From a virus, in IMG/VR virus record IMGVR_UViG_3300032770_000015, positions 24,563 to 88,562 of that record: a stretch of DNA of 64,000 nt, one strand, 5' to 3'. Numbering within the stretch: position 1 is the first letter of the stretch; each line of letters starts with the position of its first letter. The translations under genes and the position numbers were made by a program. Shown here piece by piece: positions 25,549 through 41,261 of the stretch. The notes beneath the pieces are model-generated. The model saw only the letters and a list, made by a program, of their open reading frames with translations, was not told the origin of the DNA and did not search any database.

Positions 25549-26023
25549 GGGGATACGCCTCAGATCGTTGCAGTAGGATTTTGCTACCGGGTTCAATCTA
25601 CGCTGGCCGCGCGGCCGCAGCGGTCTTCCGGGCCGGGTCGGACGCCCCAGCGCCGCAGGCGCCCACTTCGGTATCACGATACCGGGTCGGGGAACGGCGG
25701 GGGCGGGACCAGGGACCACGGGTCTACATGGTGTCGGCAAACCGGATTCCCGACCGGGGCGGTACCCTACGGGGTACCCCCGGCGGAAACGGTTGCCGCG
25801 GGATGCGTCTACGCGTGGAATCGAGACGTTTTCGTCACGTTAAGCACGTCTACCTGCATGGAGTTCTTGCCGTAGCCGCCGCCGGGCCGGAGCCGCCGGG
25901 GGGCGACGGCGTGCGGTCACTACGACGTGCGTAGACGCGCGGGGGCCACGCCTGGCGGCCGATCCGGGGCGCGGGCAGGCCGGGGCGTAGGTCCGTGGTC
26001 GTTCGCCCCGCGTACGTGAACCT

Positions 26024-28675
26024 CGTAACCCGTTCGGGCGCCGAGCGTTACATCGACTTAACGGTTCGGGAACCGTTCGGTCCGGGCGCCGGATGATTCC
26101 CGGTCGCACCTGATACCGGGTTGACGTAACGCGCGAACGTACGCCCGTAAAGCGTTACGGCGTAACGGGTTACAGAAACGACTGCATATAATATACGTTA
26201 CGTTAAGTAAGCCCGAATAGGCCGCAAGTGGCGTCGCGGCGCGGGTTTACGGCGTCGGCGCCCGGTCGCGGCGTGTTACGGGTTCGGCGCCCGATGACCT
26301 AGGACCACGCGGCGGCGCCGAAACCGGCCGACCCCGGCGCGGCGCGGTTCGCGCGCGGATCGTGACCAGGCGGCCTAGCGGCGGCGTCGTACCGTGACGC
26401 GTGCGACGTTCACGCAGACGACCCGATCCGGCGCTCTTCCGGGCGACCGGGCGGGCGCGCGGCGTCTCACACGTCTACGGGGGCGTCGTGTTTCAAGACG
26501 CAAGGCTGGGCAGAGTGGGCCAAAGCATCTTCCCGACCGCGAACCGGTCGAAGGGGCCTATAAGTGAAAGTCCTTCGTAGGGTCTTCGGCGTTATTGGGG
26601 CGATTCGCCCCACAACGTCGGCATTCCGCGGCACTGCGGCGATTCGCGACAGATGGCTATCGCATAATGCGTCACTGCGGCATTCTGCGACACGACTGTA
26701 AAGATTCACGACAGTGGGGCATTTCGCCCATGCAGCAATCGCATTTTGCGGCACTGTCGCCATAGCGCTCCGCTGCCGATCCGGCCGACCCGACCCGGGG
26801 CGTCGCCGACCGGGCGGCGCGGCCGCAAGCCTCTCCCATGTCCACGGGCGCGTCGAACCCGCCGGGCGGGGCGTACCCCGTAGGGGTACGACCCCTGGCC
26901 CGTACGGGTACGACCGACGCGCGCCCGAACCGTTAACCTATTCCCGATCCTATTCCCGTGGCGCGTCGCCGACCGCGTAACCCCGTGGTCCCTGGAGCTT
27001 TGCGCCGCGTCCCGCGTCCCGCCGCGACCGTCGCCGATCCGGCGCGGCTGCAACCTATTCCCGGCGGTCGCGGGCGCCGTTAACGGTAGCGCGGCCGACG
27101 GCGCCCCGGCGCCGTTTCCGGGCAGGCGCAACCGTTCCGTGGCGCGGCGGCGCCGTTTCCGGCCGTCGTCGCCCCGGAACCCTCGGCGCCCGGCCGACTC
27201 CCGCGCTGCTCCGGCCTGCCGCCCGAACCCCGTCCCGTCGGCCCGCGTCGCGTGGCCCCGGAACTGGTCGCCGCCCCCGTCCGCGTAGACGTGCGGAGAA
27301 GCGTGATCCCGCCGCGCCCGGCCCGAACGTAAAGTGGTCCGTCGTCGTCGGTTACTCCGCCCCGGACCGGTCGCCCGACCGAACGCCCGGGCGTCGGGGT
27401 CGGCGCGCCGCTCGCGTGAACCTCGCACGTGACCCTGTCGTTACAGTATCGTTACACGTTCGTTACATCGGGTCGGCCGGTCGCGGCACGGTTTTCGCGC
27501 GCCGCCAGAAGTGTAATCGTTTTGTAACGGAGAAATTTCCGTGCCAGGCCCGGGATTCGCACGCCGCCGCGGAATGCGGCGATGTAACGATCCGATTACA
27601 AGGCGACGAACGGGCCGCCGTGGCACGGTTTTTTACGACCCTTGCCGGTGACCCGGAGAAGCGTGCCCCGCGCGCTGCGTGAAACCGGCGGAAAGCCAGG
27701 CGCGGCGCGGGTTTCCGCGATTCACGCCGGGTCGGTCGGGCGGACGGCCGCGCGGTCTTCCGTTCGCACGTCTACGCGGAACGTCGCACGAACGCCCCCG
27801 GAAGTGGCGTCGCGGCGCCGTTTCCGGCACCCGGGCTCGTCGGTTTCGACCCCCGGCACGTCGCGGGGCCGGACCGGGCGTCGCGCCGGGGCGGAATGTA
27901 ACGATCCGGTTACATTCGGCCGGTCGGCGCCGCGTTGGCACGATTTTTCAAACGTGCTACGATGACCCGTACGCCCCGACCCGTCGCGGAACCGGTTTGT
28001 CGGTAAACCCGCGCCGCGTAACGGGTTACGCTACGTCGCCGGGGCGCGGCCGTATCCCGATAACCCCCACCCCCCGGCAAACGGGTCGTAACCCCGTACG
28101 CCGTAACGGTTTACGACCGGTCGCGAAGACGGCCCCCGTTTCCACGTCTACGGTCATCCTCGCACGCCGCATTTCGCCGGGGATCGGACCCGTCGGGTAT
28201 GGCCCGCCGCCCGATTCCCGACCTCGGCGCCCGGCGTTCGCCCGACCGGACCGGGCGCACGACCCCGGCCGACGCCCGCCCGGCGTCGCCGCCGCCCCGG
28301 GGCGGCCCGATCCGGCGGGGGCGCGGGTCCCGGGCAGCCCAGGTCGGAATTCGCGCGTTTATAGGAGAGGTCGTAACCGCGTACGCCGTAACGGTTTACG
28401 GGTGTGATCTCAAGGCCCCCGCCGCCGCGCCCCCGGGCGCCGAACGGCGCAAAACGGTCCCAAACGGCCGATCCGGAGGTGACACGTTTGCACGCGCGCG
28501 GAAGCGTCGTAACCCCGTGGGAATACGGAAGTTACGGCGTTTTCGTCGTGCGCCCATTTTTCCGGTCGCGCCGGACCGTCCAAAATGCCCCGGTTTCGGG
28601 ACCGCCCCCGCCGACCCGGTAGAATCGCGCGTATACTAGCACGACCCGTAACCCGTTACGCCGTCGCGCTTTACG
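26024..28675. repeat. Dispersed 29-bp imperfect palindromes CGTAA-N19-TTACG (about 9 copies)
   Basis: Copies at 26024-26052, 26146-26174, 26223-26251, 26976-27004, 28002-28030, 28087-28115, 28372-28400, 28508-28536, 28647-28675. Confidence 0.8.
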
Positions 28676-28695
28676 GATGTAATCGGATCGTTACA
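27583..28695. promoter_or_regulatory. Three 18-bp operator-like palindromes TGTAA-N8-TTACA
   Basis: 27583-27600 TGTAACGATCCGATTACA, 27897-27914 TGTAACGATCCGGTTACA, and 28678-28695, which is the exact reverse complement of the first. Confidence 0.65.
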
Positions 28696-29213
28696 CATCT
28701 ACGGCGACGGCGGCCCGGGATTCGCTACGTTTTCGGGTCGCGGACCCCGGAACGCGGCGCGACGCCGTACCGACCGGGAAAACCGCCGGGGGAACCGCCG
28801 GGCCCAGCGCGCCGCGACGATACCGGGAAGGCGAAGCCGGAACCCCCGAACGAACGAACCCGCGCGACGGACGACGGCGCGGGTCGGGTGAACGAAGCAC
28901 CGACGGGGATGGTCGGATTAACCGGAACCCCCGCCGCCGGACCCCCGACCCGTACTGGGGCGACACCGCCCCCATCGTCCGACTGGTCGTCGCGGGCCGC
29001 CCGCCCGGCGCGCCGGAACATCGGCCGCGAACCCGGGGCGAACGGGCGGGGGTTTTCCGCCGGGGGCCGTTCCCCGAACGCGGACGCGACCCGCCACCGT
29101 TCCAGCGCACGTCGTCCCGCCGGGGCGTCGAATCCCCGGCAGGACATTCGCAGAAACCCCGCCGACCGGTCCGGCCGCGCGGGGCGTATCCCCGAACCGA
29201 AAGGAACCGACCC

Positions 29214-29429
29214 GTGGTCCCGATCCGCCTCACGCTCGACCCGCTGGGCGCCGGGTACGTCGAACTCGTCGCCGTCGTGCATGACGCGACGTACGACGCC
29301 GACGTGCGCCGGACGATCCGCGTCTCGCTCGAATCCTTCGGCCCGTCGGCGACCGTCGTTGCCCTGCGGGACGCGAAAGGGAACCTGGTCACGGCCGCCG
29401 ACTGGGCGCTCTTCCCGTCGGTCGCATAA
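29214..29429 (+). CDS. Early hypothetical protein
   Basis: 71 aa with AAAGGA RBS, bounded by family A motifs. Confidence 0.7.
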   Translation: MVPIRLTLDPLGAGYVELVAVVHDATYDADVRRTIRVSLESFGPSATVVALRDAKGNLVTAADWALFPSVA

Positions 29430-29534
29430 CCCGTCGCCGCCCGGCGTCGAATCCGGGCGGCGTCATACGAACCGAACGCCCGCGCCGGACCGGCGCTGGG
29501 CGAGCCGAAACCCGAACCGAAAGGGACCGTCCGA

Positions 29535-29849
29535 ATGAAGCCCGTGAATCCCGCCTGCGCCGACGATACGTCGCTGGCCGGGTACGTCGACACGACGTAC
29601 GCCGCGCTCGTCGCTGCCTTCGGTCCGCCGAACGGCCGGAGCGACGGATACAAGGTGGACGCCTGCTGGGTCCTGGCCGCCGGTGGGCGGATCGTAACCG
29701 TGTACAACTGGAAGGACGGCCCCGCGTACCGGGGCGCGGCCGGTACGCCGGTCGAGGCGATAACGACGTGGCACATCGGGGCGCACTTCGCCCCGGCGGC
29801 GCTCGCCGCGATGCGGCGCGCGTTCCCCGGCCGCGTTTCGGCCGCGTGA
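29535..29849 (+). CDS. Early hypothetical protein
   Basis: 104 aa. TSLAGYV.TTYA.LV.AFG.P..DG.KVD..W...TVYNWK...WHIG pattern seen in small phage proteins. Confidence 0.75.
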   Translation: MKPVNPACADDTSLAGYVDTTYAALVAAFGPPNGRSDGYKVDACWVLAAGGRIVTVYNWKDGPAYRGAAGTPVEAITTWHIGAHFAPAALAAMRRAFPGRVSAA

Positions 29850-30112
29850 CGAACCCGACGGCCCCGGGCTTCGAAACTCGGGGCCGCCTTACGATCCGAA
29901 CCGCCCGCGCCGGACCGGCGCCGGGCGGCGCTGCGTTGGGCACCGGGCCACCGGCCCGGCACGCGACCAGATGCCCCGGGGGTTGGATTCGCCCGGCGGT
30001 CGCCGCCCGCCCGACGCCCGGGGGCTTCGAAACCCCCGCGCGTCATCGCTGAACGTCGCCGGGCCGGACGGCCGGGCGACCCCGTACCCGCCGGACGAAA
30101 GGAACCGTACCC

Positions 30113-30271
30113 GTGGCCCCGCACGCGAACGAAGACCGGATCATCGCACAGCTCGACCGGGACGCCGTCTACCACGTCGCCGACCGCCTCGCGTTCCGCG
30201 TCGCCGACGACGCCGCGATGGCCCGCGCCCTGCGGCCGTACGTCGCCCGCTGCACCGCCGTTACGTTCTGA
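30113..30271 (+). CDS. Early hypothetical protein (52 aa)
   Basis: Own translation MAPHANEDRIIAQLDRD..., with AAAGGA RBS. Confidence 0.6.
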   Translation: MAPHANEDRIIAQLDRDAVYHVADRLAFRVADDAAMARALRPYVARCTAVTF

Positions 30272-30466
30272 ACCCGTCGCCGCCCGGCGTCGAACCCGGG
30301 CGGCGCCTTACGATCCGAACGCCCGCGCCGGACCGGCGCTGGGCGAATTCTTCCCCGATCCGAACCCGCACGACCAGAAAGGGACCGACCCGATGACCTC
30401 GACCCCGATGGACGAGCTGGCCGCCCTGCTCGTTCGCATCCAGCGCCGTCGTCCGGCGCCCGCCCG

Positions 30467-30757
30467 ATGAACCCCGCCGTCGTCGCCATCGTCGTCGCGG
30501 CCGTCCAGGACGCGCCGACCCCGTACCGCCTGGCCGACCGCATGGCCGCCCAGCGCGCCATCGTCGCCGCCGTCGCGCCGTACTTCGGCGGCGACCAGCT
30601 CGCCGCGTCGCTCGCGGTCGCCCCGGCGTACGCCGCCGCCGTCGAGCGCATTGCGGCGGTCCGGCGGAACCGGATCACCGGCCTGTCGTCGTCGCTCCCG
30701 GCCGGGGTCGTCATCGGCGACCGCGCCGTGCCGATCTCCGCCGTCGCGGGTGACTGA
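30467..30757 (+). CDS. Early hypothetical protein (preceded by 25-aa ORF 30393-30470)
   Basis: 96 aa, ATGA coupling. Confidence 0.6.
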   Translation: MNPAVVAIVVAAVQDAPTPYRLADRMAAQRAIVAAVAPYFGGDQLAASLAVAPAYAAAVERIAAVRRNRITGLSSSLPAGVVIGDRAVPISAVAGD

Positions 30758-30883
30758 ACCTACCGACGAGGCGTGACCCGCCCCGCGTCGCCCGGGGGCT
30801 TCGAAACCCCCGGGCGTCGTTCGCTCCGAACGTCCGCGCCGGACCGGCGCTGGGCGAGTTCTTCCCCGAACCGAAAGGGACGT

Positions 30884-31261
30884 ATGGAACACGACGCGCG
30901 GCACCTCTTCGAAGACCGGTACGGCGACGGTCACCCCTCGACGCGCTACCACGCGCGGCTGATCATCGCCGGGGCCGAGAACGGCCTCGCCGGATACGGC
31001 GTCGTCGTCATCCCGGCCGGATCGTCGGCCCGGCAGGTCCAGGGCGGGCCGCTCGTCCCTGGCCCGTGGGCCGCGACCTTCGGGCTCTGCACCGTCATCG
31101 ACAACGCGGGCGGAACCGGCGCCGAGGTCGCGCGCGAAACCGCCCGGGGCGACGCCATCCGCGTCGCGGCGGGCGATACCGTCCGCCTGACCGACGCCGT
31201 GACGGTCCGCGTTACCATCGGGCGGCGCGAGTACCCGGACCTGACCGTGGTGGACCGGTAG
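30884..31261 (+). CDS. Early hypothetical protein
   Basis: ATG at 30884 after AAAGGGA. Confidence 0.7.
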   Translation: MEHDARHLFEDRYGDGHPSTRYHARLIIAGAENGLAGYGVVVIPAGSSARQVQGGPLVPGPWAATFGLCTVIDNAGGTGAEVARETARGDAIRVAAGDTVRLTDAVTVRVTIGRREYPDLTVVDR

Positions 31262-31362
31262 GGCCGCCGGGCGGGGGCTTCGAAACCCCCGCCCGTCATC
31301 GCTGACCGACGGACGCCGGACCGGCGGGCCGTCCCTATTCCCCGATCCGAAAGGACGAGCTG

Positions 31363-32034
31363 ATGAAGCGCTACCAGATCATCACGGCGAACCGCGCCAC
31401 GAGGTCGCAGGCGGGGTACGCGCAGACGGAATCGTCAACCCTGGAGCTGGGCGAGTCCCTGTTCGTCACCGCCGAGAAGGCCGTCCCGCGCGGCGCCGGG
31501 GTCGAGGTCGAGCTGTTCGACACGGTCAAGAACAAGGTCCTGCGGTCCCGGTACTTCCCGACGCTCGACGAGGCGCGGGCGTCCGTCGCCCGGCGGCTCG
31601 CGAAGCACGTCGAGAGCGAGGTCGAGGCGGCCGAGGCGTCGCTGGCGAAGTTCACCGCCGAGATCAACCGTAACGTGGCGTCGCTCCGCGCCTGGGCCGT
31701 GGCCCGTGCGAACGGCGCCGACCTGACCGACTGGCGGGGCGGGAACACCGACGTGGAGTCGCCGTTCCGCTGGGCCGACGACTCGGTGGCCGCCGCCGCC
31801 CGCCTGATGGTCGCCCGCGAGGTCGAGGAATATCTGGCGACCGACCGCGCGCCGTCGGCCATCGTCGCCGCGCTGCGGACCCAGGTGCTGCGGTCGGCCC
31901 GGAACGGGCTGTCGCGGTCCACGTCGTCGTCGGCGAACCTGACCGAGGAGGCCCGCCTCGCCGCGCGGGCCGCGATGGTCGAGAAGCTCGAAACCATCGT
32001 CGCGTGGGCGACCGACATGGGCGTCGAGGTCTGA
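31363..32034 (+). CDS. Early hypothetical protein
   Basis: 223 aa with AAAGGA RBS. Confidence 0.75.
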   Translation: MKRYQIITANRATRSQAGYAQTESSTLELGESLFVTAEKAVPRGAGVEVELFDTVKNKVLRSRYFPTLDEARASVARRLAKHVESEVEAAEASLAKFTAEINRNVASLRAWAVARANGADLTDWRGGNTDVESPFRWADDSVAAAARLMVAREVEEYLATDRAPSAIVAALRTQVLRSARNGLSRSTSSSANLTEEARLAARAAMVEKLETIVAWATDMGVEV

Positions 32035-32037
32035 ACC

Positions 32038-32100
32038 GCCGAGGGGCGGGCGCCGACGAACCGGCGCCCGTTAAGGCACGGCCCGGTCCCAAGTCCGGGC
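32038..32100 (+). ncRNA. Twister ribozyme 1 (P5-like permutation); predicted cleavage U32072/A32073
   Basis: GCC-GAGGG-[P1 hairpin]-UAA-GGC-AC-..-GCCCGG-UCCCAAGU-CCGGGC. Confidence 0.88.
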
Positions 32101-32195
32101 GGAACGCAGGACGCCGCGCCAGGTATGGTGCCGGGTAAGCGTCCGTGCCGAACCCCATCACTTGAGGTGACATATGCGGTAGACCCCCGGGTAAC

Positions 32196-32272
32196 GCCGA
32201 GGGCGACGATCCGCCGGGCCGTACGCGCGCCCCGGGTCGTCGTAAGGCGCATGGCCGGTCCCAAGCCCGGCC
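32196..32272 (+). ncRNA. Twister ribozyme 2; predicted cleavage U32243/A32244
   Basis: GCC-GAGGG-CGACGAUCCG...CGGGUCGUCG-UAA-GGC-GC-..-GGCCGG-UCCCAAGC-CCGGCC. Confidence 0.88.
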
Positions 32273-32297
32273 GAACCCGAACGAAAGGAACGACCCG

Positions 32298-32672
32298 ATG
32301 TCGCTTCGCTGGCAGATGTCGAACGAGCAGAGCCCCGCGTGGGTGAACCTGTCGCCCGTGATGCGGGAGACCATGATCTTCGGCCTGGTCATCGCCGATA
32401 TGGGCGAGATCAAGGACGAGGCCGCCGCCGAGAAGTTCTGGACCCGGCTCCGGATGGCCGAGCTGGCGCAGGGCGACTCGTTCGTCCACCAGACCCCGGC
32501 GGGCGACGGCCCGATGATCCAGCGTTGGATCACCCTGGCCGACTGCCGGGCGGCCATCGGGCTCGGCGCGAACGTGCGGACGACGACGGACGCGCAGTAC
32601 AATCGGAAGGTCGCCGGTATCCTGCGCGACACGGCCGTCGCCGAGCTGCGGCGGGCGAAGGACGCAAAGTAG
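32298..32672 (+). CDS. Early hypothetical protein
   Basis: 124 aa with AAAGGA RBS, flanked by twisters 2 and 3. Confidence 0.75.
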   Translation: MSLRWQMSNEQSPAWVNLSPVMRETMIFGLVIADMGEIKDEAAAEKFWTRLRMAELAQGDSFVHQTPAGDGPMIQRWITLADCRAAIGLGANVRTTTDAQYNRKVAGILRDTAVAELRRAKDAK

Positions 32673-32735
32673 CCGAGGGGCGGGCGCCGATCCGTCGGCG
32701 CCCGTTAAGGCGCACGGCCGGTCCCAAGCCCGGCC
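32672..32735 (+). ncRNA. Twister ribozyme 3; predicted cleavage U32706/A32707
   Basis: Full core. First G is the last base of the TAG stop codon. Confidence 0.88.
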
Positions 32736-32760
32736 GAACCCCAAATGGAAAGGATGCCGG

Positions 32761-33249
32761 ATGAACTACGCGAACGTGCTAGGCGAGGCGAAGGGCAAGT
32801 TTGGCGCGTGGACCGCCTGGTATGTGCTGGGCGAGGCCGCCACCGGGTACGCGGTCCGCGCGCAGTTGGCGCCCGACCTGACGGTGAACCCGTTCACGGA
32901 CACGGACATCTACGGCGCGGTCAAGGAGATGAACAGCACGCAGCGCCCGGCCGGGTTCGACGGCGCAGCGCGGAAGATCCACACGCCCCGGTCGGTGTAC
33001 TGGTGGCAGCCGCCGTCGGATACGCGCGACGCGGCGGTCATCGCGTCCATCGCCGAGCGCGTGCGGCGGTTCCTGAACGACGACTGGTCGTATGTCGGCC
33101 TGCTCGTCGAGGTCCGGCACCCGCCCTGCACGCTGTGCGGCGAATCGCGGGTCACGTCGGCCGGGCTCTGGGGCATCGAGTCGGACAGCGACGACGGGTA
33201 CGTGATCGAGACGCTAGGCGACCTCGTGAACGAGGCGAAGGACGAGTAA
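32761..33249 (+). CDS. Early hypothetical protein
   Basis: 162 aa. DWSYVGL.V...AGLWGIESD motif. Flanked by twisters 3 and 4. Confidence 0.75.
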   Translation: MNYANVLGEAKGKFGAWTAWYVLGEAATGYAVRAQLAPDLTVNPFTDTDIYGAVKEMNSTQRPAGFDGAARKIHTPRSVYWWQPPSDTRDAAVIASIAERVRRFLNDDWSYVGLLVEVRHPPCTLCGESRVTSAGLWGIESDSDDGYVIETLGDLVNEAKDE

Positions 33250-33250
33250 C

Positions 33251-33313
33251 GCCGAGGGCGACCGCCGCGCGGTTCCGGCGGTCGTAAGGCACGGCCCGGT
33301 CCCAAGTCCGGGC
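33251..33313 (+). ncRNA. Twister ribozyme 4; predicted cleavage U33285/A33286
   Basis: Full core with P1 CGACCGCCG/CGGCGGUCG and T2 AC:GU. Confidence 0.88.
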
Positions 33314-33337
33314 GACCCCATCAACGAAAGGACGTGT

Positions 33338-33538
33338 ATGGCGCTCGTGATGCTGCCCCGTACCGACGACCTGCCGCCGGTGTACGTGAACCCGGCGCAC
33401 GTCGTCGGCGTCGAACCGTCGGTGACCGACCCCGGCGCGCCGGTCTGCACCGTGTACGTGCTCCCCGGGAACCGGGGCCACTTCGTCGCCCTGTCGGCGC
33501 TCGAGGCCGCCCGCCGCCTGAACGGGGGTGCCGCGTGA
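33338..33538 (+). CDS. Early hypothetical protein
   Basis: 66 aa with AAAGGA RBS. Confidence 0.65.
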   Translation: MALVMLPRTDDLPPVYVNPAHVVGVEPSVTDPGAPVCTVYVLPGNRGHFVALSALEAARRLNGGAA

Positions 33539-33915
33539 GGACGAAGCTGAACGCCCTGTTCAAGGCGCTGCGCCAGGCGGGCGTCGCGGCGCACCAGAAC
33601 TACGAGTGCTGCCAGGGGTGCGGCTGCGCCCGCGTCGCGTCCGAGATCGGCGTCGTCGGCGCGTACGTCTTCTATCACCACCAGGACGCCGAAGACCTCG
33701 AGCCCCCGCGCCATCACCGTGCGGGCGACGGCTGGCGGCCCGGCGTCTACCTGGCGTACGGGATCGTGTCGGCCGTGGAGCTGCCGGACGCGGTGGAAGA
33801 GGCCCTGCGGCTGAAGGTGGGCGAGCTGATCCGGAGGCTCGCCACCGTGGTCGGGCTCGCCGTCGAGTGGGACGGGACGACCGCGCAGCGCATCTGGGTC
33901 ACGGAGGCCGCGTGA
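33535..33915 (+). CDS. Hypothetical protein (DUF6891-like)
   Basis: LNALFKALRQAGV.A.QNYECCQGCG...YVFYHHQD...GL.VEWDG....RI pattern. Confidence 0.6.
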   Translation: MRTKLNALFKALRQAGVAAHQNYECCQGCGCARVASEIGVVGAYVFYHHQDAEDLEPPRHHRAGDGWRPGVYLAYGIVSAVELPDAVEEALRLKVGELIRRLATVVGLAVEWDGTTAQRIWVTEAA

Positions 33916-34238
33916 TCGACACCCTCGAGCCGTCGCCGCGCCGCGAGCCCACGCGGCAGATGTTCATCGTTCCGAACGACCCCGCCGGGCGGGCGGTCAT
34001 CGCCACTCTGCGCGCATACCTGAACCGGGCGACCTACCGCCTGCGGGTCGTCGGCCGGGGCGTCCGCGCCGACCGCGCCCGCGAGTTCCGCCGCACGCAC
34101 CGGGCCTGGGCGACCCGGCGCCCCGACTACGCCTGGATTCCGCGCCGGTACGCGACCCGCCTGGCCGTGTACATCGAGCGCAAGGACGGGATCGGGATCA
34201 ACTGGCAGCAGCTCCGCACGCTGTACCCCGTCCGTTAG
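33912..34238 (+). CDS. Early hypothetical basic protein
   Basis: GTGA coupling. Ends at twister 5. Confidence 0.65.
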   Translation: MIDTLEPSPRREPTRQMFIVPNDPAGRAVIATLRAYLNRATYRLRVVGRGVRADRAREFRRTHRAWATRRPDYAWIPRRYATRLAVYIERKDGIGINWQQLRTLYPVR

Positions 34239-34302
34239 CCGAGGGGCGGGCGCCGATCCGTCGGCGCCCGTTAAGGCGCACCGCCGGTCCCAAGTCCGGC
34301 GG
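34238..34302 (+). ncRNA. Twister ribozyme 5; predicted cleavage U34272/A34273
   Basis: Full core, T2 GC:GU. Confidence 0.88.
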
Positions 34303-34328
34303 AACCCACTGGAGAAAGGCTGGGCGAG

Positions 34329-34670
34329 ATGTCCGACGTGCAGATCACGAAGGTTCACGCCGTCGAGTGGCACCGCAACGGCGTCGGCGGGCTCGGGTTC
34401 CACGTCGTCCTGTTTGACGAGGCTACGGAGGGGCGGATGATGGCCGTGGACTTCGGCCCCGAGGCCGACGCGGCGACGGATTCCTTCGGGGTCATCGCGG
34501 TCTTCCAGCTCGACAAGCTAGCGGCCGGTGACGTGGCCTTCGGGTCGAACTCGTGGCGCGGCGACCACTACACCGGGCCAGTCCGGGCGGTCATCACGGC
34601 GGCCGAGGCGCGGGGCGAGACCGGGAAGCTCGGGCCGTTCTCGCTGCCGCCGCAGCTTCGCCGGAAGTAG
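34329..34670 (+). CDS. Early hypothetical protein
   Basis: 113 aa. WHRNGVGG..FHVV.F and NSWRGDHY motifs. Flanked by twisters 5 and 6. Confidence 0.75.
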   Translation: MSDVQITKVHAVEWHRNGVGGLGFHVVLFDEATEGRMMAVDFGPEADAATDSFGVIAVFQLDKLAAGDVAFGSNSWRGDHYTGPVRAVITAAEARGETGKLGPFSLPPQLRRK

Positions 34671-34730
34671 CCGAGGGGCGGGCGCCGATGGATCGGCGCC
34701 CGTTAAGGCACGGCCCGGTCCCAAGTCCGG
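34670..34730 (+). ncRNA. Twister ribozyme 6; predicted cleavage U34704/A34705
   Basis: Full core, T2 AC:GU. Confidence 0.87.
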
Positions 34731-34757
34731 CGACCCATCTCAAAGGAGGCAGCCGGT

Positions 34758-35072
34758 ATGAGCGCACGCGTCTTCGTCTGGCCCGAGCGGACCTACGAGG
34801 AGCTGGGCGCCGAACGCTGGGCCGTGTCCTGGAAGACCGTGCGGCCCGGCGCCAACGTAAATGAGGAGATCGACTTCGACGTCGACCTCGTGGACCGCGC
34901 CGTCGCCTGCCGGACCCACGCGGCGGCGGTTGCCCGCGCGCGGCGCGCCGCCGCCGAGGACTACTTCGGCGGGGCGGTCGTTCAGCGCCAGGTCGTCGCG
35001 TGGGACGTCGAGGAGGACCGCATCGCCGAGTGGGCCCCCGCTGGTGAACCCGAATATGTGGAGGACCGATGA
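34758..35072 (+). CDS. Early hypothetical protein
   Basis: 104 aa with AAAGGAGG RBS. Confidence 0.7.
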   Translation: MSARVFVWPERTYEELGAERWAVSWKTVRPGANVNEEIDFDVDLVDRAVACRTHAAAVARARRAAAEDYFGGAVVQRQVVAWDVEEDRIAEWAPAGEPEYVEDR

Positions 35073-35428
35073 GACCGCGCACGTCGATCATCGTCGCCCT
35101 TCGGCCCGGCCGAACCCAGGCCGCGGCCGACCGCCGCGAGCGGATGGAGACCATCATCCTGGCCGAGGCCCGCGCCCGGGGCGTCCGGTATGACGGGTCG
35201 GGGAACTACGTCACGGGGCCGCGGCGCGGGACGCGCGAGCTTTTCTTCGTGACGCGCCGGCGCGACCTGACCGTCGCCGCCGTCCGCGACCTGAAGGCCG
35301 ACGTCCGCGAGGCGGAGCACTTCGCCTACCGGACGTACTTCATCACCCGGGACTATGGGACCGGCGCCTGGCTCGTGAACCGCGGCGGCCGGACCGTCGC
35401 CGCCGCCGCCCGGGCGCTGGTCCGTTAG
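35069..35428 (+). CDS. Early hypothetical basic protein
   Basis: 119 aa, ATGA coupling. Confidence 0.65.
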   Translation: MRPRTSIIVALRPGRTQAAADRRERMETIILAEARARGVRYDGSGNYVTGPRRGTRELFFVTRRRDLTVAAVRDLKADVREAEHFAYRTYFITRDYGTGAWLVNRGGRTVAAAARALVR

Positions 35429-35551
35429 CCGAGGGGCGGGTGCCCGTCCGCGATGCGCCGCTGGGTCGAGCCGGGTTCCGACCGGCGCCAGCACGCGGTC
35501 TCGCACGACGTGGTACCCGTTAAGGCGCACCGCCGGTCCCAAGCCCGGCGG
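35428..35551 (+). ncRNA. Twister ribozyme 7 with extended P1; predicted cleavage U35521/A35522
   Basis: P1 base GCGGGUGCC/GGUACCCGU encloses an insert of about 65 nt. Core intact. Confidence 0.83.
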
Positions 35552-35578
35552 AACCCCACTAGAGAAAGGCTGGGCGAG

Positions 35579-35938
35579 ATGGATGAGCGGCAGGCATCGC
35601 GTGAGGCAGCCGAGGACGTGCGGTACGAGCGCTGGGAGGCGCTATTGTTCAAGCACGTGCCCGGCCTGACGCGCGGGAAGAATCCGGCGTGGCGGTCCGA
35701 CTTGATGATGGAGGCCGATGGCGGCCCGATCTTCATGAAGTTCATGTCGGACGGTGGCGTGGATGACACGCCGAACGGTCTGGCGCTGCGGGCCTGGCTC
35801 CGGGCGCGGAAGATTCCGTTCCGGCAGTATGGGCTGAAGGAGGACCCCGGCCAGGTGCGGGTCTTCACGCTGTCGCGGCGGGCGTTCGCCCGGGTCGAGG
35901 CCATTCTGCGCGGGCTCGAGCGCCGCGCGGCGCGGTAA
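35579..35938 (+). CDS. Early hypothetical protein
   Basis: ATG at 35579 after AGAAAGG. Confidence 0.7.
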   Translation: MDERQASREAAEDVRYERWEALLFKHVPGLTRGKNPAWRSDLMMEADGGPIFMKFMSDGGVDDTPNGLALRAWLRARKIPFRQYGLKEDPGQVRVFTLSRRAFARVEAILRGLERRAAR

Positions 35939-35970
35939 GCCGAGGGCTGCTGGTGCTAAAGGTCGCAAGG

Positions 35971-36035
35971 GCCGAGGGACGGGCGCCCCGATCCGGGCGC
36001 CCGTTAAGGCGCGCCGCCGGTCCCAAGTCCGGCGG
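35971..36035 (+). ncRNA. Twister ribozyme 8; predicted cleavage U36005/A36006
   Basis: P1 ACGGGCGCCC/GGGCGCCCGU. Full core. Confidence 0.88.
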
Positions 36036-36056
36036 AACCCCGAACGAAAGGACCGT

Positions 36057-36389
36057 ATGATCACGACGAAGCGGCTGATCTTCCACCTCGACGCGGCCAT
36101 CGCGCGGCACGTCCGCGACTGGCAGCGCCTGACCGAGCACGGCACGATTGCCGTCGACTCGGACGTGATAGCGCTGTACGCGCAGGACATGGCCGCGCTA
36201 ATGCGGGCGCGGTCGGCGTTCTGCCACGCCAGGTTGGTCGAGGAGCACAGCACGTGGGACACGGCGACCGTCGCCCGGCTGCTGCGCCGGGGCGCGCGCA
36301 TCTTGCGCGACCGCGACACGGCGGTCACCGACCACTTTCCCCGCCCGCTCGTCCTGGCGGTCGGGTCGCTGGTCGGCGACGGCGCGTGA
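36057..36389 (+). CDS. Early hypothetical protein
   Basis: 110 aa with AAAGGA RBS. Confidence 0.65.
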   Translation: MITTKRLIFHLDAAIARHVRDWQRLTEHGTIAVDSDVIALYAQDMAALMRARSAFCHARLVEEHSTWDTATVARLLRRGARILRDRDTAVTDHFPRPLVLAVGSLVGDGA

Positions 36390-36634
36390 TCAACACGCAG
36401 CGCGCCCGCGCCGCGCTTAACCGGCTCATCGCGGCGGCCGACGACACGGCCGTTGACCAGGCGTTCCTCGACCGCTTCCTGCGCCGTGCACCGACGTATG
36501 CGAATGCGTGCGAGGCCTGCGGGAAGCAGGTCGCCACCACCACCATCCTGGGCCACGGGTACTGCGCCCACTGCGGGAACGTCGCGCTCGAGGTCATCGA
36601 GGCCCGGCGCGCCCGCCGAAAGGAGACCGCGTGA
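36386..36634 (+). CDS. Small zinc-finger protein
   Basis: CEAC...CAHC. GTGA coupling. Confidence 0.6.
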   Translation: MINTQRARAALNRLIAAADDTAVDQAFLDRFLRRAPTYANACEACGKQVATTTILGHGYCAHCGNVALEVIEARRARRKETA

Positions 36635-37056
36635 AGAAGGTCCGCCACCGGACGACCCGCGCCACGCTGCTGGTCGTTGACCGCCTGAACCTGACCGACC
36701 TGCCCGGAAAGGATCTCGCCGGGGCCGACCTCGCCGAGGAGGACCTGGGCGCGACGAACCTGCGCGCCGCCAGCCTGCGCGGCGCCGACCTCCACGGGGC
36801 GTGGCTGCGCCGGACGAACCTGAACGACGCCGACCTCCACGCGGCCGACCTGCGCGGCGTGGACGCGCAGGGCGCGGACCTGCAGCGCGCGAACCTCTCG
36901 AACGCCGACCTCACCGGGGCTGACCTGCAGGGCGCCGACCTGCGCGGGGCAAACTTCGCCGGGGCGTGCTTGACCGACGCCGACCTGCGCGGCGCGAACC
37001 TGCGCGGCGTCGCCGTGACGGTCGGCAACCGCACCATCCTGACGTCCAACGCCTAA
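36631..37056 (+). CDS. Pentapeptide repeat protein
   Basis: About 20 A(D/N)Lxx repeats. AAAGGAG RBS. Confidence 0.9.
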   Translation: MKKVRHRTTRATLLVVDRLNLTDLPGKDLAGADLAEEDLGATNLRAASLRGADLHGAWLRRTNLNDADLHAADLRGVDAQGADLQRANLSNADLTGADLQGADLRGANFAGACLTDADLRGANLRGVAVTVGNRTILTSNA

Positions 37057-37118
37057 CGCAGAGGAGGGCCGGGACCGATCCCCGGCCCTAATGCGGCGGC
37101 CCGGTTCCAAGCCCGGGC
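37057..37118 (+). ncRNA. Twister ribozyme 9 (divergent, covarying); predicted cleavage U37089/A37090
   Basis: CGCA-GAGGA-[P1]-UAA-UGCG-GC-.-GCCCGG-UUCCAAGC-CCGGGC. Compensatory changes in P2 and T1. Confidence 0.9.
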
Positions 37119-37148
37119 GACGTTCACCCCCGAAACGAGGGAGCGCTG

Positions 37149-40100
37149 ATGAAGCAGACCCACGTGATGAACCGCGCGACGGCGGCCGAGCTGGGCGATG
37201 CCCTGCTCGCGGCGGCGGGCGACATCGCGACCCGGTACGGCCTCGAGGTCGAGGCGGCGGCCGGGTCGTTCAGCACGACGGAGTTCAAGGGCTCCGTCCG
37301 GTTCAAGCTGCCCGCGACGAACCCCCGCGTGGCCGAGAAGCTCGCGGCGGACTTCGCCGACCTGCACCTCAACCCGGCCATCGTCGGCTGCCAGATGACG
37401 GTGCGCCGCCACACGTACACCGTCACCGGCGTGAAGCCCTACGCCAAGTACTGCATCGTGACCCGCCGCGATGACGGGAAGACGTTCATGTTCCCGTACG
37501 CGACGGCCGAAAAGCACTTCCCGACGATGGTCACCCGGCCGTGACCGACCACACCGGGGAAGTCTACGGCCCGGCGGTCCTGCTCGGGACGCTGCCGGTC
37601 GGCGCGCGGTTCCGGTCGGTGATCGTGGACGTGCCGCCGCGCGGGTTCCGCCCGCTGCCCGACCGGATCAAGTACGGCACGCTCGAGGATCTGTCGTCCG
37701 CCTGCGCCACGGTCACCGTCGAACGGGTCGTGTCGCGGACGTTCACGACCGAGGAAGGGAAGGACGTGACCCTGGCCACGGCGTCCGAGCGGACGACGTG
37801 GAGCCTCGGCACCGTGGTCGAACCCCTGCTCACGCCGGAGGTGCTCGTGTGAAGACGCTCCTCGCCGTCCTGGCGGCGCTCGCCGCCCTGAAGTACCTGA
37901 CCGACCCGTCGCGCGACCCGCTGGGCGAGCTGCGCCGCCGGGGCGCCCTGTGAACTACCGCGCGTACTTTCGCGGGCGGTCCGTCGTCGGGACCGCGCCG
38001 AACGTAGAGACCGCGCAGCGCGAGGCCGCCAAGCTGCTGGGCGCCCGGAAGTACTGGGAGGTCCAGATCGAGCAGGTGGCCGCCAACGTCAACCCGCCGG
38101 AACCGAAGGAACCTGCACCGTGACCCCGACCAGTCGCATACGGAAGATGCGCCCCCTCGAGGGCGACCCCAGCCGGACGGACCGCGCCCGGCGCAACGAC
38201 CTGACGCGCGCGGCGATCCGCGACCTGAAGGTGGACCTGCGGGTGCCGACGCACTTCTCGTACCGCGGATTCTACGTCACGCGGTCGTTCTCGACCGCGA
38301 CCTGGTACATCAGCCGCGACGGGACGCCGATCACCACGGCGCCGTCGGCCGCCGAGGCGCGCCGGGTCATCGACACGCTGGCGCGGGAGGCCTGATGGCC
38401 TTCACCCGGCGCAGCTTCGAATCGGCCCGGGCGTCCGGGCTCGGAAAGGCGCAGACGCTCGCCCGCGCCGAGGCCGCGACCCGGACGGTCGCCGCCCTGG
38501 AGGGCTGGCCCGTCGCCCGGCTGGCGCTGAAGTTGGCCGCGTACCGGCAGATGGCAGACCTCGCCTGGGCCGACTGTCCCGTCTGCGGGCAGCCCTGGAC
38601 CCAGGGTCACGATCCCGAAACCTGTTGAAGAAAGGATGACCTGTGAAGCGTTTCTTTGATGATCACCCTGTGGGCACGTTGCTGAACGCCGTCGAGGCCG
38701 AAGACGGTGAGCCGCAGGAATTCAGCCAGCCCGCGATCCTCAACCCGAACGGCGCCCCGGCGACGTTCGTGAACGTCTACCGCGTCGAGCGGTGCTATGG
38801 CGGCCCCGAGGAGGGCGGCTGGTGGTACGACACCGGGGAACCGGTCGGCTCGGTCGTCGTCCAGGGCAGCGTCGAGACGCACGTCGTCCGCACCCGGCTC
38901 GAGCGCGAGTATCCGTTCACCCGCGCCCGGTACTCCGTCCTGGGCGGCGAGGACTACAGCGTCCGGGTCGAGGATCACCCGGCCGTCGCGTGGCCCGCGC
39001 AGCGCCCCCACTACTGCTGAGGAGGCCGCGTGAAGCCGTCGCAGATCGAACAGCAGATGACCGGGCAGTGGGACACCTGGGTCACGACGACCATCGAGGT
39101 CTCGACCGCGACCCTGGAACGGTTCGCCGCCGCGATCCACACGGTCATCGGCCGTAACGTGGACGTGCGGTACGCGCTTCGCAACGTGGACGCGATGCTA
39201 ACCGCCGCCGCCGAGCTCGCCGTCGCCCGGTCGCTCGAGACCGACCGGCGGAACGGCCAGACGTACCGCGAGCTGCACGCGACCGCCCTGCGCCACGCGC
39301 TCCATGGGGCGGCGTTTCCCCGGCAGACGGGGCGGGCGGCCGACGCCATCAACGAGGGCGCCGAGACGGCCGCCTGGGCGCACGTCGAAGAGGTTCTCCG
39401 CAGCATCCTCGCCATCGAAAGGACCACACCGTGAGGTACCGCGTCACCGCCACCACGCTCGACCTGACCTGCGCCTCGCTGCACGTCGGCGCGGTCGTCA
39501 CGTCGGCGCCGATCCGGCACGAGGTCATCGACACCGAGGCGAACGAGCTGTTCGCCGACTGCGCCACCGCGTGGCAGGTCGAGGACCGGTACACCGATTT
39601 CTGGAACCGGATTGACCCCACGCTCGACATCCACCAGCCCTTTCACACGCACCGGGCGACGGAGAAGGTCGTCGTCCTGAACGTCGAGGTGATCCCGTGA
39701 ACCCGCACAACCTGAACCTGGTCCCCACGGCCGTCGCGGCGGCCATCGACACCGGGCGCCCGGAGCTGCTGGTCGCGCTCCGCGACGCCGCCCTGCGCGG
39801 CACGTTCGCCCCGGACCGCACGACGGTCGCGGGGCTCGTTGGGGTCATCGCCGATCAGGTCGAGGCCATCGGGCGCCTCCAGCGTCAGCTGGCCGAGGCC
39901 CGCACCCTGGCGACCGAGCTCACGAAGATCGGGAAGGGGCTGCTGCTCGCGGCCGATGCGCTCGGGAACCTGCGGTGAACGTCGCCACGAAGGCCCTGCA
40001 CCTGACGCCCGAGTGCGACCGCCTGGTGGCCGTGTCGGGTGAGTCGCAGCGGATCGGCGCGTTTTTTGCCTGGCTCACGCACGACCGTGACCCCCAGATC

Positions 40101-41261
40101 GAGCTCTGTGAGCGGGCGGATCGGGGCGACCAGCTCTGGCCGGTTAGCCGATCCATCGAACAGCTGCTCGCCGAGTACTTCGAGATTGACCTCGATAAGG
40201 TCGAGGCCGAGCGCCGGATGCTGCTGTCGGCGGTCCGGCTCGACCATACCTTGACGGAGGAACCCCACGATGGCTGATCGCCCCCGCCCGACCCAGGCCG
40301 AGGTCCTTGACCGTTGGGCGACCGCCGACCCCGTGCCCGTCCCGCGCGTCGCGTTCGAGACCGCGATCCGCTGCATGGGGATGATTGACGCCGTGCGCCT
40401 CGCGTGCGGCGCGTTCGACTGCCAGCTCCCCGAAGGGCGCCTCCTCGTCCGTGTGATCCGCGACGGGTACCAGGTGCTCCCCGACGCCGTACGCCGCGAC
40501 CTGGCGCAGAAGCGCCTCGCCTCCATGCGAAAGGACCCCATCACGTGACCCGTCCGGTGCAGGAACCCGTCGAGAGCCCCGGCGCCCTGCCGGGCTCGAC
40601 CGACCTTAACCACCCCGCGTTTGGGCAGATCAGCGCGGCGCGCGTCTCCGGCGCACCGGGCGCGGCGCTGTACGGGTCGGACTTCCGCCACGGCAACTGG
40701 GTGATCATCCGCATCGCGCGCTCGACGCTCGGGGGCGACATCTCGCACGACTGGCCCCACGCCCGCGAGGAGCTCATCGAGGTCTGGCTGTCCGAAGCCC
40801 AGTGGGCGACGTTCGTCAGCTCGATGAACGTGGGTGACGGCCCGCAGTGCACCATCTACCACGTCGGGGGCGAGCGGATGCCCGCCCTGCCCCTGCGCCG
40901 GATCGAGACCGTGGCCCGGGCCGAGCTCGACGCCGCAACGGCCGAGACCGCGCGGCTCGTCGAGGAGGCGCTCGCCGCCGTCCGGGGCGAGATCGGGGCC
41001 GGGCTGTCGAAGGTGAAACAGGAGAAGATCATCGGCCGCCTGGAGAAGCTCCAGCGCGAGCTGTCCGACGGCATTCCGTGGATGGCCAAGACGTTCGCCC
41101 GCCACATGGAGACGACCGTCGAGAAGGCGAAGATGGAGGTGAACGCCTACATGACGCACACGCTGCAGCGCATGGGGATCACCGCCCTGGGCGGCGCGCC
41201 CCCGGCTCCGTTGCAGCTTACCGACGGTTCCCCGACGGACGACACGAAAGGACAGCCGTGA
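37149..41261 (+). other. Run of small, mostly translationally coupled hypothetical genes
   Basis: 37149-37544, 37541-37852, 37849-37953, 38120-38395, 38395-38628, 38643-39020, 39030-39434, 39431-39700, 39697-39978, 39975-40277, 40270-40548, 40545-41261. Mostly (A/G)TGA overlaps. Confidence 0.7.

What the first reader, a model, noticed from the sequence alone, without database searches (positions are those of the whole stretch)
32073..37089. Ribozyme-flanked gene cassettes could be released as circular mRNAs
Seen: cleavage at consecutive twisters would release fragments of 171, 463, 579, 987, 432, 817, 484 and 1084 nt. Each begins AAGGC-P4(UCCC)-RBS-ORF(s) and ends GCC-GAGGG-P1-U. Because of the permutation, a fragment's own 5' and 3' ends are complementary halves of one twister, so P2 and T1 can re-form and juxtapose the 5'-OH and 2',3'-cyclic phosphate. 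This holds for the first seven fragments but not the last, because copy 9 has different P2/T1 sequences. Established: such ends are RtcB substrates. Tandem ribozymes generate circles in retrozymes and in the engineered twister-based Tornado system. Inference: the phage may make circular or end-clasped, exonuclease-resistant early mRNAs. A ligated circle would rebuild an active ribozyme and could reopen. No RNA ligase or reverse transcriptase is visible in this window.
Basis: inference. Interest (0 to 1): 0.8.

Follow-up and report, generated by a model that had tools for sequence, protein, structure and literature searches.

The report
Twister ribozyme array cutting phage operon
Nine copies of a known self-cutting RNA (the twister ribozyme) sit between the small early genes of an uncultivated phage and most likely chop one long message into hairpin-ended linear messages; the idea that the pieces close into circular messages could not be tested directly and is not favoured by comparison with similar arrays in other phages.

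Summary
Nine type-P5 twister ribozymes (Rfam RF02684; 8 over the curated cut-off, the ninth carries a ~70-nt insert in P1) lie on the + strand at 32037-37116. In 7 of 8 fragments the two ends are complementary halves of one twister.

The circular-mRNA reading remains an untested inference.
- No RNA data set holds this phage.
- The complete 88.6-kb genome has no RtcB, RNA ligase or reverse transcriptase.
- Only 3 + 3 base pairs would clasp the ends, against the 18-bp stem of the engineered Tornado system.
- Three fragments tested fold no better than shuffled sequence.
- A ligated circle would rebuild a consensus ribozyme.

In 19 arrays from other phages each ribozyme keeps its pairing in cis (712 of 720 cells). 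Where neighbouring copies differ, the cassette ends are fully complementary in only 7 of 29 junctions. Selection therefore acts on cleavage in cis, not on end-to-end compatibility.

The most likely function is co-transcriptional processing of an early polycistronic transcript into linear mRNAs with terminal hairpins. This was proposed for tandem hammerheads in prophages in 2011, and circles were sought there and not found. This scan has already found and followed up the same arrangement on other DNA, with the same outcome.

The parts
32037..32098 (+). twister 1 (type P5); cleavage between 32072 and 32073
   Evidence: Rfam 54.7 bits; model R1 64.0 bits
32195..32270 (+). twister 2, with a longer P1; cleavage between 32243 and 32244
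   Evidence: Rfam 47.2 bits; R1 54.3 bits
32671..32733 (+). twister 3; cleavage between 32706 and 32707. The stop codon TAG of the upstream ORF overlaps the first two ribozyme positions.
   Evidence: Rfam 55.3 bits; stop position
33250..33311 (+). twister 4; cleavage between 33285 and 33286
   Evidence: Rfam 53.6 bits
34237..34299 (+). twister 5; cleavage between 34272 and 34273. Its 5' half is identical to that of twister 3.
   Evidence: Rfam 54.9 bits; identity table
34669..34730 (+). twister 6; cleavage between 34704 and 34705
   Evidence: Rfam 55.7 bits
35427..35548 (+). twister 7, with a ~70-nt structured insert in the P1 loop; cleavage between 35521 and 35522
   Evidence: Rfam 27.4 bits, below the cut-off; R1 45.5 bits over the full model; the 5' half folds at -51.8 kcal/mol
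35970..36032 (+). twister 8; cleavage between 36005 and 36006
   Evidence: Rfam 51.6 bits
37057..37116 (+). twister 9, with the family-consensus P2 (GCA/UGC) and a compensated T1 (A-U); cleavage between 37089 and 37090
   Evidence: Rfam 56.5 bits; P2 and T1 letters
32073..32243 (+). fragment 1, 171 nt, no real ORF (only a mini-ORF ATG-CGG-TAG); probably a cassette that lost its gene
   Evidence: sequence; fold z-score -1.47
32244..32706 (+). fragment 2, 463 nt; ORF 32298-32672 (124 aa, no family)
32707..33285 (+). fragment 3, 579 nt; ORF 32761-33249 (162 aa, no Pfam family)
33286..34272 (+). fragment 4, 987 nt; three overlapping-stop/start ORFs: 33338-33538, 33535-33915 (DUF6891) and 33912-34238
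34273..34704 (+). fragment 5, 432 nt; ORF 34329-34670 (113 aa)
   Evidence: fold z-score +0.82
34705..35521 (+). fragment 6, 817 nt; ORFs 34758-35072 and 35069-35428
35522..36005 (+). fragment 7, 484 nt; ORF 35579-35938 (119 aa). It includes a remnant of a twister 5' half at about 35936-35950.
36006..37089 (+). fragment 8, 1084 nt; ORFs 36057-36389, 36386-36634 and 36631-37056 (pentapeptide-repeat protein). Its ends are not complementary (4 of 6 pairs).

Best explanation
The nine elements are active type-P5 twister ribozymes. They cut the rightward (early) polycistronic transcript of this phage, as it is made, at nine fixed U^AA sites.

Each released piece is a linear mRNA of one to three small genes.
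- Its 5' end is a 5'-hydroxyl, followed after 8-9 nt by the P4 hairpin. A uniform leader of 51-59 nt, ending in a ribosome-binding site, runs to the start codon.
- Its 3' end is the GC-rich P1 hairpin, which ends 0-3 nt before a 2',3'-cyclic phosphate.

The type-P5 permutation puts one stable hairpin on each product. Processing thus insulates each cassette from its neighbours in folding, decay and translation.

Shown here: the ribozyme identity, the covariation, the sites and the stereotyped layout. Inferred: one shared transcript, cleavage in vivo, and the effect on mRNA stability and translation.

The uniform P2 and T1 of copies 1-8 are best explained by common descent and by recombination between copies. 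Recombination requires any 5' half to work with any 3' half in cis. End-to-end closure need not be invoked.
For: Identity and selection on the ribozyme
- 8 of 9 copies pass the Rfam cut-off. All 9 matches in the genome lie in this array.
- On 138 aligned twisters from this phage and 19 others, P1, P2, P4, T1 and T2 all covary. 97.1% of cells are paired against 64.4% in shuffles. T1 (99.7% paired) and T2 (93.5% paired) were not part of the model that made the alignment.

Stereotyped layout in unrelated phages
- The upstream stop codon ends within -6 to +5 nt of the first ribozyme base in at least 92 of 114 cases.
- The gap from the ribozyme end to the next start codon has a median of 28 nt (IQR 22.5-32.5, n = 119). 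In the window it is 24-32 nt.
- The genes between ribozymes are unrelated from phage to phage.

Terminal hairpins and transcription unit
- The 3'-terminal P1 hairpins fold at -19 to -52 kcal/mol and the 5' P4 hairpins at -10 to -15.5 kcal/mol. Both persist in folds of whole fragments.
- The array holds one weak promoter-like match (34414-34441, 9 of 12) and one terminator-like match (35224-35236). Over the whole scanned region 25000-41000, 2 promoter-like matches compare with 0.5 expected and 5 terminator-like matches with 7.6 expected.

Support from context and literature
- A second, unrelated two-hairpin RNA with covariation fills the same intercistronic slot in the seven spacers upstream and is followed by the same leader.
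- Processing of long phage transcripts into gene-length mRNAs was proposed for tandem hammerheads in prophages and shown in vitro (PMC3088659 passages). It is repeated for twisters in a review (PMC6765202 passages).
Against: - No RNA data exist for this phage, so cleavage in vivo, the transcription unit and the linear state of the products are all inferred.
- The host is unknown. In hosts with RNase J, a 5'-hydroxyl can mark an RNA for decay, as for the glmS ribozyme (PMC6765202). In that case processing could shorten mRNA life rather than lengthen it.
- The uniform P2 and T1 of copies 1-8, beside variable P1 and P4, is also what a model of end-to-end compatibility predicts.
- Observed adjacent compatibility in other arrays (77 of 100) is slightly above shuffled copy order (71.9 +/- 2.0; 1% of shuffles reach it).
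- In the two twister-bearing phage records that do encode RtcB (2 of 69 searched), the gene lies on the same strand: about 2.2 kb from the nearest twister-like match (a sub-threshold type-P1 hit; 2.8 kb from the nearest Twister-P5) in one, and about 3 kb from the single twister in the other.
Confidence: 0.7

Rival explanations
1. After cleavage, each cassette's own ends re-form P2 and T1, and a host RtcB-type ligase (or the ribozyme's reverse reaction) closes the cassette into a circular, or at least end-clasped, exonuclease-resistant mRNA.
For: - The ends of 7 of 8 fragments are fully complementary twister halves.
- The end chemistry suits RtcB (class chemistry; Tornado passages).
- P2 and T1 are uniform over copies 1-8 while P1 and P4 vary.
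- RtcB lies on the same strand as the twisters, 2.2 to 3 kb from the nearest twister or twister-like match, in 2 other phages.
- The scan's notes report one hatchet-ribozyme circle in another phage (e1-5894140, not checked by me).
Against: - The phage has no RtcB, RNA_ligase, 2_5_RNA_ligase2 or reverse transcriptase.
- RtcB is present in 1 of 19 array-bearing records and in 1 of 50 records with 0-1 twister, so it is not enriched.
- Only 6 inter-half pairs would hold the ends, about -2.5 kcal/mol each for P2 and T1, against 18 bp in Tornado.
- The halves of copies 1-8 are interchangeable, so they would pair between molecules as readily as within one.
- A ligated circle carries a complete consensus twister and should cut itself again. 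No rod-like fold that could silence it is predicted (z -1.47, -1.23 and +0.82 for 3 of 8 fragments).
- In other arrays, 22 of 29 junctions between unlike neighbours are not complementary, while cis pairing stays at 712 of 720 cells.
- Circles were sought for tandem hammerheads and not detected (PMC3088659; data not shown there).
Confidence: 0.07
2. The repeats matter chiefly as DNA. The ~60-bp twisters are homology patches at which early-gene cassettes are gained, lost and shuffled, and RNA cleavage is secondary.
For: - The halves assort independently. Twisters 3 and 5 share a 100% identical 5' half but only 80% of the 3' half plus leader. Twisters 5 and 7 share 95% of the 3' half plus leader but only 37% of the 5' half.
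- Fragment 1 is an empty cassette.
- A remnant of a 5' half lies at about 35936-35950.
- Gene content between ribozymes is unrelated across phages.
Against: - Plain recombination sites would not need compensatory changes in P1, P2, P4, T1 and T2.
- They would also not need the fixed spacing to stop and start codons.
- No close relative of this phage was found in which to see an actual swap.
- This reading is compatible with the best explanation and does not have to replace it.
Confidence: 0.1
3. Cleavage is a timer or switch rather than a stabiliser. The terminating ribosome on the stop codon that overlaps P2 delays folding, and the 5'-hydroxyl products are then degraded quickly, which limits early-gene expression.
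For: - The stop codon overlaps or abuts the first ribozyme bases in the window and in at least 92 of 114 cases elsewhere.
- Decay after a 5'-hydroxyl is documented for glmS (PMC6765202 passages).
Against: - Both products carry strong terminal hairpins, which suits protection better than decay.
- The host and its RNases are unknown.
- Nothing here measures timing.
Confidence: 0.1

Closest known systems
Type-P5 twister self-cleaving ribozyme (Rfam RF02684; class reviewed in PMC5408937)
   Same: The secondary structure is the same, with P1, P2, P4 and the two pseudoknots T1 and T2. So are the conserved loop, the U^AA site and the permutation, in which P1 is closed and the ends lie beside P2 and P4.
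   Different: Copies 1-8 have P2 as GCC/GGC instead of the commonest GCA/UGC. No P5 stem is evident. Copy 7 has a ~70-nt insert in P1.
Tandem hammerhead ribozymes that flank genes in prophages (Perreault et al. 2011, PMC3088659)
   Same: Several self-cleaving ribozymes on one strand flank single genes or short gene blocks of varying identity in phage DNA. Processing into gene-length mRNAs was proposed, and circles were considered.
   Different: The ribozyme class differs (twister, not hammerhead), and there are more copies (9 here, up to 15 in other records). Their arrays were shown to cut in vitro, whereas nothing was assayed here.
Tornado, the engineered twister-flanked circular RNA system (Litke and Jaffrey 2019, recalled; passages in 10.1101/2023.07.11.548538 and PMC10729303)
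   Same: Twister cleavage at both ends gives a 5'-OH and a 2',3'-cyclic phosphate that RtcB can join.
   Different: Here only 6 inter-half pairs are available, the whole ribozyme would be rebuilt in the circle, and no ligase is known.
Retrozymes and viroid-like circular RNAs with hammerheads (PMC4918200 and PMC7229834, search listings only; PMC13725137 passages)
   Same: Tandem ribozymes define a unit whose ends join into one ribozyme.
   Different: Those circles are small and mostly non-coding. They are described as able to adopt stable rod-like structures, for the predicted totivirus circles (PMC13725137 passages). Those of retrozymes also depend on reverse transcription. Here the units are ordinary coding mRNAs with stop codons, no excess structure and no reverse transcriptase.

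Membership tests
Twister-P5 ribozyme (RF02684) | Score over the curated gathering threshold of the covariance model | tested here: met
   8 of 9 copies score 47.2-56.5 bits against the 37.6-bit cut-off. Copy 7 scores 27.4 bits, but 45.5 bits over the full length with my model R1.
Twister-P5 ribozyme (RF02684) | Helices P1, P2 and P4 kept by compensatory changes | tested here: met
   On 128 distinct sequences, P1 is paired in 96.7% of cells, P2 (3 bp) in 98.4% and P4 in 96.3%. Every pair has changes on both sides. The alignment was fitted to these helices, so it leans towards them.
Twister-P5 ribozyme (RF02684) | Double pseudoknot T1 and T2 | tested here: met
   T1 is paired in 99.7% of cells and T2 in 93.5%, both with double-sided changes. 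Neither was in the model that made the alignment. Which nucleotides form T1 and T2 was inferred from the covariation and from my recall of the class.
Twister-P5 ribozyme (RF02684) | Self-cleavage at U^A giving a 5'-OH and a 2',3'-cyclic phosphate | not testable with these tools
   The site sequence is present in 9 of 9 copies. No assay was possible and no RNA reads exist.
Ribozyme-derived circular RNA (Tornado, retrozyme or viroid-like) | Ends held together by a long stem or rod-like fold | tested here: not met
   Only 3 + 3 inter-half pairs are available, about -2.5 kcal/mol each for P2 and T1, against 18 bp in Tornado. Fold z-scores are -1.47, -1.23 and +0.82 for 3 of 8 fragments.
Ribozyme-derived circular RNA (Tornado, retrozyme or viroid-like) | A ligase (RtcB or tRNA ligase) available to close the ends | tested here: inconclusive
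   The phage encodes none. The host is unknown, and RtcB rang in 10 of 14 control genomes.
Ribozyme-derived circular RNA (Tornado, retrozyme or viroid-like) | Back-junction molecules observed | not testable with these tools
   No RNA run holds this sequence.
Ribozyme-derived circular RNA (Tornado, retrozyme or viroid-like) | End-to-end compatibility conserved across related arrays | tested here: not met
   Only 7 of 29 junctions between unlike neighbours are fully complementary, and 11 of 19 arrays have at least one non-complementary junction.
Tandem-ribozyme processing of phage polycistronic transcripts (Perreault 2011) | Several ribozymes on one strand flank single genes or short gene blocks in phage DNA | tested here: met
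   Nine ribozymes separate 8 blocks of 0-3 ORFs. Phage identity rests on a P22-type coat protein, a family A DNA polymerase and a primase-helicase, and on a complete virus record with terminal repeats.
Tandem-ribozyme processing of phage polycistronic transcripts (Perreault 2011) | Cleavage products of the expected sizes | not testable with these tools
   This needs in vitro transcription or RNA sequencing.

The most novel reading that the evidence does not exclude
In arrays with uniform P2 and T1, such as this one, the ribozyme-cut cassettes are joined by a host RtcB-type ligase into translatable circular early mRNAs. These circles live in a cleavage-ligation equilibrium. They would give the phage exonuclease-resistant messages and would be the first natural protein-coding circular mRNAs made by tandem ribozymes in bacteria.
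Probability: 0.06. Interest if true: 0.8.

Novelty: new member of a known kind. Interest (0 to 1): 0.3.

Why it matters
The biological role of bacterial and phage twister and hammerhead ribozymes is still listed as open in reviews (PMC6765202, PMC5408937). Long, tidy arrays such as this one are good material for settling it. The array has nine copies, a fixed spacing to stop and start codons, and one terminal hairpin left on each product.

The comparison made here gives a usable rule. The pairings that bridge the two ribozyme halves covary within a copy and are not kept between neighbouring copies. This points to cleavage in cis as the selected activity.

If circles were nevertheless found, that would be a new form of bacterial gene expression. 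As it stands, this is one more example of an arrangement described in 2011, which this scan has already met in several other phages.

Tried and rejected
RNA evidence. The look-up of sequencing runs listed no RNA holder, only one DNA run from a wetland metagenome that may be the source of the contig. Back-junction reads therefore could not be sought.

DNA reads. Read laying on that DNA run gave only Logan contigs that break at the twister repeats. The joints had sides under 30 letters, and depth was lower over about 32777-34042. None of this is usable as evidence.

Close relatives of the phage.
- A scan of viral contigs for the window's own P2 variant next to the loop motif found nothing.
- A search with the protein encoded just upstream of the array found nothing.
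- blastn of one twister plus its leader against cultured phages found nothing.
- The nearest cultured phages by coat protein (Nanhaivirus, 32-33% identity) have no twister. In that search the family rang in no control genome.

Other searches.
- The loop motif scanned in bacterial genomes gave 120+ stretches, of which 80 were listed. All but one of those listed hold a single match, which is what chance would give for a 16-mer in GC-rich DNA. I did not pursue them.
- The second upstream motif was not found elsewhere with one exact pattern.
- The RNA_lig_T4_1 search rang in no control genome, so it says nothing.

Literature.
- Roth et al. 2014, Weinberg et al. 2015 and Felletti et al. 2017 are not held. 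What they say about twister gene contexts is known to me only through the reviews.
- Supplementary figures of Perreault et al. 2011 were not opened, and their negative result on circles is 'data not shown'.
- Searches for prior descriptions of twister arrays in phages found no paper on circular mRNAs from phage twister arrays.

Rows dropped or filled before the counts.
- L119 was dropped as a fragment of the same phage as L128.
- One partial 38-nt match (L133:5082) was dropped.
- In some searches, four loops that the alignment left as gaps were filled by hand from the Rfam hit sequences.

Limits of the sample. The 100 records searched were chosen because they hold the twister loop motif, so array frequencies are not population estimates. 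Only 3 of 8 fragments were folded against shuffles.

Full report
**What is there**

The window is the right-hand 64 kb of a complete 88,562-base virus record with direct terminal repeats. It has about 70% G+C. It encodes a P22-type coat protein, a family A DNA polymerase and a primase-helicase.

Rfam finds eight type-P5 twister ribozymes over the curated cut-off, all on the + strand between 32038 and 37116. A ninth lies below the cut-off at 27.4 bits. That ninth copy has a ~70-nt insert in its P1 loop. My own covariance model matches it over its full length at 35427-35548 with 45.5 bits. Five of the 35 sequences used to build that model came from this window. The rest of the genome has no twister.

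Each fragment starts with the 3' half of a twister, which holds the P2 3' strand, T2 and the P4 hairpin. Each ends with the 5' half of the next twister, which holds the P2 5' strand, the T1 strand, the P1 hairpin and the U. Seven fragments carry one to three ORFs. Fragment 1 carries only ATG-CGG-TAG. Of the 10 cassette proteins scanned, only two match a Pfam family: DUF6891 and a pentapeptide-repeat family.

**Are they real ribozymes?**

A scan of IMG/VR for the 16-nt loop motif, followed by Rfam searches of 100 of the matching records, showed many other phages with arrays. These hold 15, 13, 11, 10, 9, 8, 8, 7, 6, 6, 6, 5, 4 and 4 matches. One of the 8-copy records is a fragment of the 13-copy phage.

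I aligned 138 matches from the window and 21 stretches of 19 other phages to one model. On the 128 distinct sequences every helix covaries. P1, P2 (three pairs) and P4 are paired in 96-98% of cells. The pseudoknots T1 and T2, which were not part of the model, are paired in 99.7% and 93.5% of cells, with many changes on both sides. Sliding the partners by one to three columns drops pairing to 26-42%. These are functional twisters under selection for their fold.

**The layout**

In the other phages, the stop codon of the upstream ORF ends within -6 to +5 nt of the first ribozyme base in at least 92 of 114 cases. The next start codon follows the ribozyme after a median of 28 nt. The leader left after cleavage has a median of 56 nt. 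The window fits, with gaps of 24-32 nt and leaders of 51-59 nt.

The genes between the ribozymes are unrelated from phage to phage. The ribozyme therefore fills the intercistronic space as a piece of syntax that does not depend on gene content.

After cleavage, the upstream product ends in the P1 hairpin (-19 to -52 kcal/mol). The downstream product begins with the P4 hairpin (-10 to -15.5 kcal/mol) 8-9 nt from its end.

Inside the array the consensus scan gives one weak promoter-like match and one terminator-like match, which are not convincing as signals. A promoter-like site lies upstream at 27935-27963.

The seven spacers upstream of the array (29112-31331) hold a different two-hairpin RNA. 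In it, 13 of 22 pairs have compensatory changes, and it is followed by the same leader. Rfam does not know this motif.

**The test of the circular reading**

The two halves of a twister touch through P2 and T1. I asked whether these six pairs form in cis (within a copy) and in trans (the 5' half of copy i+1 with the 3' half of copy i, that is, the two ends of one cassette).

| Measure | Window | Other phages |
|---|---|---|
| Copies with all 6 pairs in cis | 9 of 9 | 112 of 120 |
| Cassettes with all 6 pairs in trans | 7 of 8 | 77 of 100 |

With copy order shuffled within arrays, the trans count in the other phages is 71.9 +/- 2.0.

In the other phages, 71 junctions join copies of the same type and are trivially compatible. 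Of the 29 junctions that join unlike copies, only 7 are fully complementary. Cis pairing, in contrast, stays at 712 of 720 cells. Eleven of the 19 arrays have at least one non-complementary junction. Compensation is therefore kept within a ribozyme and not across a cassette.

Further points against circles as the selected product:
- The phage has no RtcB, RNA_ligase, 2_5_RNA_ligase2 or reverse transcriptase.
- RtcB is found in 1 of 19 array-bearing records and in 1 of 50 records with 0-1 twister.
- The clasp is weak, about -2.5 kcal/mol each for P2 and T1, against the 18-bp junction of Tornado.
- The halves of copies 1-8 are interchangeable, so they would pair between molecules as well as within one.
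- A closed circle would contain a complete consensus twister.
- Fragments 1, 2 and 5 fold no better than shuffles, so no rod-like silencing fold is apparent.

**What favours the circular reading, told in full**

- P2 and T1 are uniform over copies 1-8 while P1 and P4 differ.
- Adjacent compatibility elsewhere is slightly above shuffled order.
- In the two records that encode RtcB, the gene lies on the same strand as the twisters. In G067 it is two genes upstream of the array. In G062 it is about 3 kb downstream of the single twister.

Uniformity has a simpler cause. In the window the halves assort independently. Twisters 3 and 5 share a 100% identical 5' half but only 80% of the 3' half plus leader. 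Twisters 5 and 7 share 95% of the 3' half plus leader but only 37% of the 5' half. There is also an empty cassette and a remnant of a 5' half. Together these point to recombination inside the ribozymes. Recombination of this kind requires any 5' half to work with any 3' half in cis.

**What is known**

Perreault et al. 2011 described multiple hammerheads that flank genes or short gene blocks in prophages and showed cleavage of three arrays in vitro. They proposed processing into gene-length mRNAs. They also wrote that spliced or circular products were possible but that they detected neither, as data not shown (PMC3088659, passages).

The 2019 review by Weinberg and colleagues repeats the processing idea for twisters and calls the role open (PMC6765202, passages). 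I could not read Roth et al. 2014.

This scan's own notes list several earlier follow-ups of twister arrays in other phages with the same verdict. I did not rely on them.

**Verdict**

The circular-mRNA reading is geometrically possible, but it is untested, it is not new as an idea, and the comparative test does not favour it. The most likely function is processing into linear, hairpin-ended mRNAs (confidence 0.7). This is a new member of a known kind.

Noticed in passing
window 29112-31331 (+): Seven copies of a two-hairpin RNA fill the intercistronic spacers upstream of the twister array. The first hairpin has a conserved C(U/G)UCGAA(A/U/C) loop and the second is bulged. The copies are followed by the same ribosome-binding leader as the twisters. 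13 of 22 predicted pairs have compensatory changes. There is no Rfam match at E up to 1, and one exact-pattern scan of viral contigs found nothing. This could be another processing element or an unknown ribozyme.
   Followed up: partly
window 32073-32243: The first ribozyme-bounded fragment is an empty cassette. It has a leader, a ribosome-binding site and ATG-CGG-TAG, and then the next twister. This looks like a gene lost by deletion.
   Followed up: partly
window 35936-35950: A truncated copy of a twister 5' half sits directly behind the stop codon of ORF 35579-35938, about 20 nt before the complete twister 8. It is probably a recombination scar.
   Followed up: no
window 35445-35510: A ~70-nt GC-rich insert lies in the P1 loop of twister 7. 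The whole 5' half folds at -51.8 kcal/mol. I did not look for what the insert might be.
   Followed up: no
window 32037-37116: The 5' and 3' halves of the twisters assort independently among the nine copies, as if crossovers fall in the conserved core around the cleavage site.
   Followed up: partly
L136 10626-11978 (-), record G067; L137 2448-3842 (-), record G062: The only two RtcB genes found in 69 twister-bearing phage records lie on the same strand as the twisters. In G067 the gene follows a DnaB-like helicase gene and is two genes upstream of the array, about 2.2 kb from the sub-threshold type-P1 match and 2.8 kb from the nearest Twister-P5. In G062 it is about 3 kb downstream of the single twister.
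   Followed up: partly
L136 8409-8474 (-): In G067 the first element of the array is a sub-threshold type-P1 twister match (43.1 bits against a cut-off of 67.2), next to type-P5 copies.
   Followed up: no
alignment A4, columns 1 and 119: The outermost P2 pair of the Rfam Twister-P5 model is unpaired in 76 of 127 distinct sequences. Its 3' partner instead covaries with the loop position that forms T2: AU 52, GC 48, GU 12, CG 8.
   Followed up: yes
L119 and L128: The IMG/VR records G036 (a 12.9-kb fragment) and G055 (89.4 kb, terminal repeats) carry the same twisters with identical scores in opposite orientation. They are the same phage sampled twice.
   Followed up: partly
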